From Escherichia phage EC3-1: DNA of 44,405 nucleotides. Below are positions 32,528 to 32,830 of this stretch, in pieces. Both the position numbers and the translations under genes were made by a program. The stretch lies in sequence record PQ571288.1; one strand, written 5' to 3'. Under the pieces are notes generated by a model. That model worked only from the letters and a program-made list of their open reading frames with translations, was not told the DNA's origin and searched no databases. Within the stretch, counting starts at the first letter, position 1; every line of letters begins with the position of its first letter.

Positions 32528-32556
32528 TTGTAGACACCACTATAATAGGGTACTAT
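32528..32556 (+). promoter_or_regulatory. Sigma70-like promoter (type B): TTGTAG, 17-nt spacer, TACTAT, with AATAG-GGTA-CTATT
   Basis: Near-identical to 23348..23376; drives the single-gene moron. Confidence 0.55.
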
Positions 32557-32590
32557 TCACTTATCGAAACGAGAGATAAGGAACTTAAAG

Positions 32591-32803
32591 ATGAAAGAAT
32601 TAATTATCGCGGTATTGATGACATTGGCAGTTTCACTGGTAATTGCTGCTGGTGTGCGTAGCTTAGATAAACACGGGTGTGAGAACTACGGAGATATCAC
32701 AGGCAGAGAGGTAATGTATAGTTACACAACTTGTTATGTAAAAACTGATAGGGGGTTTATCCCTCGTGAAGAACTTAATTTTAGAGCAGCGACACATGAA
32801 TAA
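32591..32803 (+). CDS. Small secreted Cys-containing protein (moron)
   Basis: Signal-peptide-like MKELIIAVLMTLAVSLVIAAGV; three Cys in the mature part; own promoter and terminator; opposite strand to flanking structural genes. Confidence 0.6.
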   Translation: MKELIIAVLMTLAVSLVIAAGVRSLDKHGCENYGDITGREVMYSYTTCYVKTDRGFIPREELNFRAATHE

Positions 32804-32807
32804 AACT

Positions 32808-32830
32808 AAGGCCCCGTAAGGGGCCTTTTA
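32808..32830. terminator. Bidirectional rho-independent terminator (stem AAGGCCCC/GGGGCCTT, loop GTAA)
   Basis: Third copy of the conserved stem, between convergent gene ends. Confidence 0.7.

What the first reader, a model, noticed from the sequence alone, without database searches (positions are those of the whole stretch)
32528..32830. Single-gene moron encoding a small secreted Cys-containing protein
A lone plus-strand gene (70 aa, signal peptide, three Cys) sits between the spanin and minor-head genes of the minus-strand operon, with its own promoter and the conserved bidirectional terminator. Small exported proteins in such positions often mediate superinfection exclusion or modify the cell envelope.
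Basis: partly seen in the sequence, partly recalled or inferred. Interest (0 to 1): 0.55.

Follow-up and report, generated by a model that had tools for sequence, protein, structure and literature searches.

The report
Swappable phage cassette encoding membrane protein
This is a real, optional one-gene cassette with its own promoter and terminator in a Kagunavirus phage, and it encodes a small membrane-anchored protein of unknown function; it is an ordinary kind of phage feature, but a very clean example.

Summary
The observation largely holds. ORF 32591-32803 (+, 70 aa) is a real gene under purifying selection. It lies between a conserved sigma-70-like promoter (32528-32556) and a bidirectional terminator (32808-32827), inside the minus-strand late operon of a Kagunavirus genome.

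Two details are wrong:
- The protein has two cysteines, not three.
- Its N-terminal hydrophobic stretch (19 uncharged residues; family median 22) looks like a membrane anchor, not a cleaved signal peptide.

Across 55 related loci the same site is empty in 19 and carries at least 12 unrelated cargos in the rest, all between the same promoter and terminator. The identical cassette also sits in a second site (MuF/portal) in other kagunaviruses.

The protein belongs to an uncharacterised phage family of at least 104 clusters (PHROG 26710/18961/27356). Members share a transmembrane helix and a roughly 45-aa domain with an invariant cysteine pair. AlphaFold pLDDT is 93.9, and no known fold or family matches.

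Best reading: an early-expressed inner-membrane protein with a disulfide-stapled periplasmic domain that acts on the cell envelope. Superinfection exclusion is plausible but untested.

Novelty: new member of a known kind. Interest is moderate.

The parts
32515..32830 (+). Whole exchangeable cassette (promoter, 5'UTR, ORF, terminator). It is present in this genome and absent from 'empty-site' relatives.
   Evidence: Alignment of occupied and empty sites puts the left junction right after GGAATAACTGGAATA and the right junction at the terminator. GC is 39.2% against 50.3% for the genome.
32528..32556 (+). Sigma-70-like 'class B' promoter: -35 TTGTAG (32528-32533), 17-nt spacer, -10 TACTAT (32551-32556). 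It contains the palindrome AATAGGGTACTATT (32544-32557).
   Evidence: The element is conserved upstream of every cargo type in relatives. Sister copies lie at 23348(+), 184(-) and 43039(-). The palindrome motif occurs 8-9 times in the window against 0.26 expected. A PHIRE 'phage promoter' is annotated at the equivalent place in phage fBC-Eco01. Not tested experimentally.
32577..32582 (+). Shine-Dalgarno sequence TAAGGA, 8 nt before the ATG.
   Evidence: Read from the sequence. The 5'UTR closely resembles the one after the class B promoter at 184(-).
32591..32803 (+). ORF of 70 aa: MKELIIAVLMTLAVSLVIAAGVRSLDKHGCENYGDITGREVMYSYTTCYVKTDRGFIPREELNFRAATHE.
   Evidence: dN/dS is 0.1-0.4. PHROG 26710 matches at E=6.6e-12. 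There are 104 homologous 50%-identity clusters.
32600..32656 (+). Codons 4-22: uncharged hydrophobic segment LIIAVLMTLAVSLVIAAGV, read as a transmembrane anchor.
   Evidence: Family median is 22 uncharged residues with no conserved cleavage motif. AlphaFold helix spans residues 2-37.
32660..32800 (+). Codons 24-70: conserved domain with motif C30-x2-Y-G-x2-T-G-R-E-V-x-Y ... C48-Y-V-K ... G-F-I-P-x-E-E. Predicted as a juxtamembrane helix, a three-stranded sheet and a C-terminal helix.
   Evidence: C30 is conserved in 99% and C48 in 100% of members. Exactly 2 Cys occur in this domain in 107 of 110 members. pLDDT is 93.9. dN/dS is 0.09-0.23.
32808..32827 (.). Bidirectional intrinsic terminator AAGGCCCC-GTAA-GGGGCCTT. 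It is shared by the cassette (+) and the upstream late transcription unit ending with the Hoc-like gene (-).
   Evidence: It is conserved after every cargo type.
32226..32485 (-). Left flank, not part of the cassette: minus-strand promoter (TTGACT 32485-32480, TAAGCT 32438-32433), palindrome AACTATTCGAATAGTT (32460-32475), a roughly 200-nt structured leader, and terminator 32252-32233 just before the spanin RBS.
34369..34404 (.). Second cassette site (MuF-like / portal intergenic). It is empty in this window and holds only a hairpin at 34379-34394.
   Evidence: The same promoter-ORF-terminator cassette occupies this site in L064/L065.
23348..23609 (+). Sister class B promoter (23348-23383) driving the phage's core Imm_superinfect-family membrane protein (23418-23609).
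   Evidence: PF14373, E=1.3e-13.

Best explanation
The feature is a classic moron-type accessory cassette in a virulent Kagunavirus (Guernseyvirinae). A low-GC gene with its own host-type promoter and a bidirectional terminator sits at the boundary between two late transcription units. It is exchanged between phages, and between two sites in the genome, by recombination in the shared promoter and terminator sequences (shown by comparison).

Its product is a 70-aa bitopic inner-membrane protein. The proposed layout has a short cytoplasmic N-terminus and one transmembrane helix. A roughly 45-residue helix/beta-sheet/helix mini-domain sits directly on the periplasmic face and is stapled by a C30-C48 disulfide. 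This topology is inferred from sequence, family comparison and a high-confidence model.

The cassette shares its promoter type with the phage's own Imm-like gene, and homologues in other phages lie in early-gene clusters. It is therefore probably made early in infection. It probably binds the periplasmic side of a host inner-membrane or periplasmic component. The most likely role is to block entry of DNA from a second phage (superinfection exclusion). Otherwise it may alter an envelope function to the phage's benefit. The function is inferred and not shown. It is dispensable for the phage, because most relatives lack it.
For: Cassette and mobility:
- Of 55 related loci, 19 are empty and the rest carry at least 12 other cargos. 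These include two DNA methyltransferase types, an EndoVII/HNH-like protein, a DnaN-like protein, a lipoprotein with a mini-TM protein, and several unknowns. All share the same promoter and terminator.
- Cargo type is uncorrelated with flank identity.
- The identical promoter-UTR-ORF-terminator unit sits in the MuF/portal site in L064/L065.
- GC is 39.4% against 50.3%, the 2.6th percentile.

Real protein:
- dN/dS is 0.1-0.4 overall and 0.09-0.23 in the C-domain.
- 104 clusters, all 67-112 aa.
- AlphaFold pLDDT is 93.9.

Anchor rather than signal peptide:
- Uncharged segment has a median of 22 aa.
- No conserved -3/-1 small residues.
- Some members have N-terminal extensions of up to 30 aa or a second TM upstream.

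C-terminus out, with a disulfide:
- Members with long N-termini are often strongly positive there: P0065 6 K/R, P0060 6, P0082 5, P0034 4.
- Cys30 and Cys48 are 99-100% conserved.
- 107 of 110 members have exactly two Cys in the domain.
- One member has a second extra pair. In P0011, loss of C30 is accompanied by a new Cys elsewhere.

Early, envelope-type role:
- The same promoter class drives the PF14373 Imm_superinfect gene at 23418-23609.
- Homologues in Dhillonvirus, Acinetobacter T4-likes, N4-likes, and Vibrio and Pseudomonas phages sit among early or replication genes, not lysis cassettes.
Against: - No experimental data exist for any family member, and no literature was found.
- There is no sequence or fold similarity to any known exclusion, lysis or defence-related protein.
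- The positive-inside rule is not decisive for the short-N-terminus members, including this one: MKE on the N side against RSLDKH on the C side.
- One two-TM relative (P0074) has a charge pattern that would put the domain in the cytoplasm.
- No dedicated signal-peptide or topology predictor was available.
- The phage already carries an Imm-like gene, so a second exclusion function is not required.
- Promoter activity and timing are inferred from sequence only.
Confidence: 0.45

Rival explanations
1. Lysis-timing or spanin-associated regulator (antiholin-like, in the manner of T4 RI). In this reading a membrane-tethered periplasmic domain binds the holin or spanin periplasmic parts and tunes lysis.
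For: The gene lies next to the i-spanin/o-spanin pair here and in the distant relative phiEap-2. Its architecture (N-terminal TM plus a small periplasmic domain) resembles T4 RI. The TM of the kagunavirus copies is fairly rich in Ala/Gly/Ser/Thr, as in SAR domains.
Against: - The adjacency is a property of the insertion site, not of the gene.
- The same site carries methyltransferases, nucleases and other cargos, or nothing.
- The same cassette also sits at the MuF/portal site.
- In other phage groups the homologue lies in early or replication clusters away from lysis genes.
- No Pfam or PHROG lysis family matches.
Confidence: 0.1
2. Host-takeover or counter-defence factor acting on an envelope machine rather than on incoming phages. 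Possible actions are inhibition of O-antigen or capsule assembly (Wzy/Wzz/WaaL-type targets), of a membrane-bound defence system, or of a stress response.
For: - The other cargos of the same site include anti-restriction-type methyltransferases, so the site collects host-interaction genes.
- Kagunaviruses depend on surface glycans (PMC11990801).
- One subfamily is translationally coupled to a TerB-domain protein in N4-like and roughly 100-kb phages, which hints at a membrane-stress module.
Against: - The family occurs in phages with very different receptors and hosts: Escherichia, Acinetobacter, Vibrio and Pseudomonas.
- There is no PADLOC or anti-defence family match.
- The window has no TerB gene.
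Confidence: 0.2
3. Cleaved signal peptide releasing a roughly 48-aa soluble periplasmic peptide.
For: In this copy VIAA|G or IAAG|V would satisfy the -3/-1 rule. The N-terminus MKE followed by a hydrophobic run is signal-like.
Against: - The hydrophobic run is 19 residues here and a median of 22 (15-33) in the family.
- Positions 19-21 are not conserved as small residues.
- There is no helix-breaking c-region, and AlphaFold shows a continuous helix over residues 2-37.
- Relatives have acidic N-terminal extensions of up to 30 aa or an extra TM upstream.
Confidence: 0.12
4. Small membrane toxin (Hok/Gef-like or holin-like) that depolarises the membrane.
For: It is small and has a single TM. A superficial C-E-x8-R-E-V resemblance to the Hok periplasmic tail was noted by eye only.
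Against: - There is no match to the Hok/Gef or holin Pfam families at E<=1.
- Selection is strongest on the folded extramembrane domain and relaxed on the TM, the opposite of what a pore-former would show.
- The phage has its own holins elsewhere (relative's annotation).
Confidence: 0.08

Closest known systems
Morons of tailed phages (Hendrix/Juhala definition; e.g. the HK97 gp15 moron, lambda bor/lom)
   Same: - A single gene with its own promoter and terminator.
- It is inserted between genes that are adjacent in relatives.
- Its base composition is atypical.
- It sits in the late region but is transcribed independently.
- It encodes a small envelope protein.
   Different: - The host phage is virulent, so there is no prophage expression or lysogenic conversion.
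- The promoter and terminator are phage-standard repeated elements shared by at least 12 alternative cargos and two sites. The arrangement therefore behaves as an exchangeable cassette system rather than a one-off insertion.
Superinfection-exclusion membrane proteins of virulent phages (T4 Imm and Sp; Pfam PF14373 Imm_superinfect)
   Same: It is a small, probably early-expressed membrane protein. The same promoter class in this genome drives a true PF14373 gene at 23418-23609.
   Different: There is no sequence or fold similarity. It has a single TM plus a disulfide-stapled alpha/beta domain, rather than the two-TM Imm type. Its function is untested.
PHROG families 26710 / 18961 / 27356 (unknown function)
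   Same: Direct HMM membership (E=6.6e-12, 2e-08 and 7e-08). BFVD structural neighbours with TM-scores 0.7-0.94 are the same family.
   Different: These are catalogue entries only. They carry no description of architecture, topology, cysteine pair, cassette context or TerB pairing.
T4 RI antiholin (SAR-anchored periplasmic domain)
   Same: An N-terminal membrane segment followed by a small periplasmic domain, and here next to lysis (spanin) genes.
   Different: No homology was found. The location is determined by the site, not the gene. Homologues elsewhere are not in lysis cassettes.

Membership tests
Moron (autonomous accessory gene cassette) | Present in some genomes and absent from close relatives whose flanking genes are otherwise conserved | tested here: met
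   19 of 55 loci have an empty 320-346-bp site, and flanks are 86-96% identical.
Moron (autonomous accessory gene cassette) | Own promoter upstream | tested here: inconclusive
   A conserved TTGcAg-N17-TACTAT element precedes every cargo and recurs 4 times in the genome. It scores 8/12 and so falls below the generic scan cut-off. No transcript data are available.
Moron (autonomous accessory gene cassette) | Own terminator downstream | tested here: met
   An 8-bp GC-rich hairpin plus T-run scores on both strands, has 3 copies in the window and is conserved after all cargos.
Moron (autonomous accessory gene cassette) | Base composition different from the surrounding genome | tested here: met
   GC is 39.4% against 50.3%, the 2.6th percentile of 213-nt windows.
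Moron (autonomous accessory gene cassette) | Expressed from the repressed prophage (lysogenic conversion) | not testable with these tools
   Kagunaviruses are described as virulent (PMC11990801), so the criterion is probably not applicable.
Sec-type cleavable signal peptide / secreted protein | Short h-region (about 7-15 aa) followed by a c-region with small residues at -3/-1 | tested here: not met
   The h-region is 19 aa here and a median of 22 in the family. Positions 19-21 are not conserved as small residues. The helix is continuous over residues 2-37. Some relatives have long N-terminal extensions or two TMs. This is a heuristic test; SignalP and DeepTMHMM were not available.
Imm_superinfect (PF14373) / T4 Imm | Match to the family HMM | tested here: not met
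   No hit at E<=1. The genome's real member is at 23418-23609.
Hok/Gef type I toxins | Match to the family HMM | tested here: not met
   No Pfam hit at E<=1.
PHROG 26710 (uncharacterised phage protein family) | Match to the family HMM over most of its length | tested here: met
   E=6.6e-12, residues 4-66 against profile positions 8-71 of 77.
Known anti-phage defence or anti-defence families (PADLOC-DB) | Match to any model | tested here: not met
   0 families at E<=1.

The most novel reading that the evidence does not exclude
The 70-aa protein may represent an unrecognised, widespread class of phage envelope effectors. Its features are a single-pass inner-membrane anchor and a new disulfide-stapled periplasmic mini-fold. 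It is carried as a plug-in cassette in Guernseyvirinae. In N4-like and roughly 100-kb phages it is translationally coupled to a cytoplasmic TerB-domain protein. It could act through a mechanism of superinfection exclusion or membrane protection not yet described.
Probability: 0.25. Interest if true: 0.6.

Novelty: new member of a known kind. Interest (0 to 1): 0.38.

Why it matters
The protein itself is one more small phage membrane protein of unknown function, although its family is broad, very well folded in silico and completely unstudied.

The context is more useful. Kagunaviruses have two defined intergenic 'docking sites' where promoter-to-terminator cassettes are swapped in nature. This gives:
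- a natural catalogue of accessory genes to screen, including envelope proteins, methyltransferases and nucleases;
- ready-made safe-harbour sites with native expression signals for engineering these small, therapy-relevant phages;
- natural isogenic-like comparators (empty versus occupied) for testing what each cargo does.

If the family proves to be an exclusion or envelope-protection factor, it would matter for the design of phage cocktails.

Tried and rejected
Searches with the 70-aa protein that found nothing:
- Pfam, NCBIfam and PADLOC gave nothing significant.
- A profile search of PDB sequences returned only chance TM or coiled-coil hits.
- Foldseek against PDB found nothing at E<0.6.
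- BFVD returned only uncharacterised family members.

Other searches that led nowhere:
- Rfam on 32150-32900 gave nothing above threshold.
- The search for related loci with family alignments failed because no stretch was conserved enough.
- A degenerate DNA motif for C-x2-Y-G-[DE]-[IVM]-T-G-R-E gave only 2 matches in 185,579 species genomes. The one that could be read (L060) is a chance hit; the other (L061) could not be read. In IMG/VR it gave only the two kagunavirus contigs already in hand. This subfamily was therefore not seen in prophages.
- Literature searches (Kagunavirus with moron or accessory, PHROG ids, Guernseyvirinae with superinfection exclusion, TerB with phage) found no description of the site or the family.

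Ideas rejected:
- I tested whether the 144-aa neighbour in Dhillonvirus is TerB-like. It is not.
- I tested whether the window has a TerB gene or a second family member. It has neither.
- The 44-aa antisense ORF 32663-32797 and the 36-aa ORF 32303-32413(-) are unlikely to be genes; the latter is broken by 1-nt indels in relatives.
- A Hok-like reading, recalled from memory, is not supported by the HMM.

Full report
**What the window is.** The window is a complete, circularly closed phage genome of 44,264 bp with a 141-nt terminal overlap. It belongs to the genus Kagunavirus (Guernseyvirinae). The region 31600-33400 matches 231 phage records, mostly at 90-95% identity.

The gene order around the finding, on the minus strand, is:
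- portal (34405-35886);
- MuF-like head morphogenesis protein (33292-34368, PF04233);
- Hoc-like Ig-domain decoration protein (32831-33292, phrog_3945);
- the finding;
- i-spanin (31822-32208) with embedded o-spanin (31713-31976);
- scaffold and major capsid.

**Check of the observation.** ORF 32591-32803 (+) encodes 70 aa, preceded by TAAGGA 8 nt upstream. It has two cysteines (C30, C48), not three.

The hairpin AAGGCCCCGTAAGGGGCCTT at 32808-32827 scores as a terminator on both strands. It is one of three near-identical copies in the genome, against 0 expected.

The proposed promoter is TTGTAG-N17-TACTAT at 32528-32556. It matches only 8 of 12 consensus positions and so was not listed by the generic scan. 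However, it is one of four 'class B' elements (consensus TTGCAC...ATAATAGGnTACTATTCA), at 184(-), 23348(+), 32528(+) and 43039(-). All contain the palindrome AATAG-N4-CTATT, which occurs 8-9 times in the genome against 0.26 expected.

The ORF is a real gene:
- Among eight kagunavirus copies, dN/dS is 0.1-0.4. It is 0.09-0.23 in the C-terminal domain and 0.25-0.62 in the hydrophobic segment.
- An exhaustive profile search found 104 clusters of homologues, all 67-112 aa.

**The site is an exchange point.** The best phage matches covered only 87% of 31600-33400, in two pieces. The ORF itself has no nucleotide match in any deposited kagunavirus; only the roughly 175 bp upstream match.

I collected 55 loci (IMG/VR, GenBank and Logan/ENA contigs) and delimited the spanin-to-Hoc interval in each. 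Their contents were as follows:

| Content of the site | Loci |
|---|---|
| Empty (320-346 bp) | 19 |
| 173-aa DnaN-like protein | 9 |
| This 70-aa family | 5 |
| 67-aa protein | 5 |
| DNA methyltransferases (two types) | 3 |
| EndoVII/HNH-like protein | 2 |
| 33-aa TM protein plus 114-aa lipoprotein | 2 |
| Other small proteins (57, 81, 83, 94 aa) and unclassified | remainder |

Alignment shows a sharp left junction right after GGAATAACTGGAATA. In empty sites a terminator follows directly. In occupied sites the class B promoter comes next, then a cargo-specific UTR and ORF, then the conserved terminator AAACTAAGGCCCC...GGGGCCTTTT.

Cargo type does not follow flank similarity. The window's flanks are as close to genomes carrying other cargos, or none, as to genomes with the same cargo. 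The cassette has 39% GC against 50% for the genome.

Most tellingly, a 76%-identical copy occurs in contigs L064/L065. It has the same promoter, the same 5'UTR and the same terminator, but it sits in a different intergenic site, between the MuF-like and portal genes. The spanin/Hoc site in L064 is empty. In the window that second site (34369-34404) holds only a hairpin. The distant relative phiEap-2 carries a 50%-identical copy at the spanin site.

This is therefore a textbook moron in architecture. It is also part of a small 'cassette system' in which repeated promoter and terminator sequences serve as recombination anchors. That last step is inference.

**The protein.** No Pfam, NCBIfam, PADLOC or PDB-sequence match was found. 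It belongs to PHROGs 26710/18961/27356, all of unknown function.

The family alignment shows:
- a short N-terminus, typically M-K/R-D/E;
- an uncharged segment with a median of 22 residues (range 15-33);
- a conserved module C-x2-Y-[GS]-x2-T-G-R-E-[TV]-x-[YF]-x(3-6)-C-[YF]-V-K-x(3)-G-[WF]-[IV]-P-x-[DE]-E.

**Anchor or signal peptide.** Four points argue for an anchor:
- The hydrophobic run is too long for a signal-peptide h-region.
- Residues at the would-be -3/-1 positions are not conserved.
- Some members carry N-terminal extensions of up to 30 residues, some of them acidic.
- Three members (P0074, P0078, P0101) have an extra TM in front, so the homologous segment cannot be a cleaved N-terminal signal peptide.

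I therefore read it as an uncleaved anchor. This rests on heuristics, because no dedicated predictor was available.

**Topology.** Members with long N-termini often have strongly positive ones, which favours N-in and C-out. For short members, including this one, the charge balance is neutral. P0101's positive inter-TM loop also predicts C-out, whereas P0074's pattern predicts the opposite.

The cysteines support an exported domain:
- C30 and C48 are 99% and 100% conserved.
- 107 of 110 members have exactly two Cys in the domain.
- One member has four.
- P0011 has lost C30 and gained a Cys elsewhere.

I could not measure the Cys-Cys distance in the model.

**Clues to function.**
- The sister class B promoter at 23348 directly drives the phage's core Imm_superinfect (PF14373) gene at 23418-23609. 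The cassette is therefore wired like a known small membrane exclusion-type gene.
- Homologues in other phage groups lie in early or replication gene clusters, not in lysis cassettes. Examples are Dhillonvirus, Acinetobacter T4-likes (between regA and gene 43), Vibrio anguillarum phages, Pseudomonas phages, N4-likes and unknown contigs.
- In one subfamily the gene is abutted or overlapped by an upstream TerB-domain gene (PF05099, 144-147 aa). This occurs in three backgrounds: N4-like contigs L072/L073, roughly 100-kb contigs L059/L070/L071, and Pseudomonas phage Holyagarpour. The window has no TerB gene.
- A degenerate-motif scan gave only two matches in 185,579 bacterial species genomes. The one I could read (L060) is a chance hit. 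The other (L061) could not be read.

None of these points identifies the target. The most economical mechanism is an early-made inner-membrane protein whose periplasmic mini-domain binds a host envelope component. Superinfection exclusion is the leading but unproven role. Rivals are listed with their tests.

**Comparison with the known, and verdict.**
- Architecture: it meets the moron criteria of presence/absence, own terminator and atypical composition. The promoter is supported by conservation but not by transcript data. The 'prophage expression' criterion does not apply to a virulent phage.
- Protein: it is a member of uncharacterised PHROG families and of no described functional family.
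- Overall: a new member of a known kind, of moderate interest. It is probably also wrong on 'secreted'.

Noticed in passing
window 32226-32485 (minus strand), between the cassette and the spanin genes: A roughly 200-nt leader RNA lies upstream of the spanin, scaffold and capsid genes.
- It runs from the promoter TTGACT-N17-TAAGCT to a strong terminator (32252-32233) about 20 nt before the spanin RBS.
- It is conserved more strongly than the flanking genes in Kagunavirus, Jerseyvirus-like and phiEap-2-like loci.
- The 36-aa ORF annotated there in some records is broken by 1-nt indels.
- RNAalifold finds 31 pairs, 11 of them with compensatory changes. 94% of cells are paired against 84% in shuffles (0/500) and 38-51% in slid controls. 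The single-sequence z-score is -3.2.
- Its 5' end pairs with the region that includes the spanin Shine-Dalgarno sequence.
- It has no Rfam match.
- It may be a lambda pR'-6S-tR'-like antitermination leader or a translational control element.
   Followed up: partly
window 184, 4024, 6760, 10322, 23364, 32544, 43039, 43197 (also 32460-32475): The palindrome AATAG-N4-CTATT is embedded in the spacer or -10 region of two promoter classes.
- Class A (TTGACA...TATAGT) lies at 4014, 6750 and 10312 (+).
- Class B (TTGCAC...TACTATTCA) lies at 184(-), 23348(+), 32528(+) and 43039(-).
- There are 9 matches against 0.26 expected.
- The inverse arrangement AACTATTCGAATAGTT abuts the -35 of the leader promoter.
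- It looks like the operator of an unidentified phage regulator.
   Followed up: partly
window 34369-34404; L064 2393-2740; L066 4247-4531; L001 3600-3870: A second cassette site lies between the MuF-like and portal genes. It is empty in the window (hairpin at 34379-34394). It is occupied by the same TM-protein cassette in L064/L065, and by 53-55-aa ORFs with the same terminator in L001/L066.
   Followed up: partly
L059 3567-4234; L070 2570-3255; L072 2557-3204; L069 2505-3150: A subfamily of the 70-aa protein family forms a conserved, translationally coupled pair with an upstream TerB-domain protein (PF05099). The pair occurs in N4-like phages, in roughly 100-kb phage-like contigs and in Pseudomonas phage Holyagarpour. 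I did not find this pairing described in the literature.
   Followed up: partly
window 23348-25512 (+): A second plus-strand island sits inside the minus-strand structural operon, bounded by a class B promoter and a copy of the GGCCCC terminator. It encodes an Imm_superinfect (PF14373) membrane protein (23418-23609), a 376-aa protein (the equivalent gene in relative Bas74 is annotated 'DNA repair exonuclease'), an HNH/AP2-domain endonuclease (24774-25244) and a 76-aa protein.
   Followed up: partly
L005 1484-1926 and L015 (same site as the finding): An alternative cargo of the same site is a 33-aa TM peptide followed by a 114-aa lipoprotein (lipobox LSGC, phrog_13472, unknown function). This is another envelope-directed accessory module and a candidate for exclusion functions.
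   Followed up: no
L002 1485-2006 and 8 other loci (same site): The commonest non-empty cargo is a 173-aa protein annotated variously as 'DNA polymerase III sliding clamp' or 'RusA-like resolvase'. It gives only a weak partial match to the DnaN central domain (E=0.004) and matches phrog_3007. The annotations conflict and its function is unclear.
   Followed up: no
window 1-141 and 44265-44405: An exact 141-nt direct repeat occurs at the two ends of the window. This is an assembly overlap of a circularly closed or permuted genome, so the unique length is 44,264 bp.
   Followed up: yes
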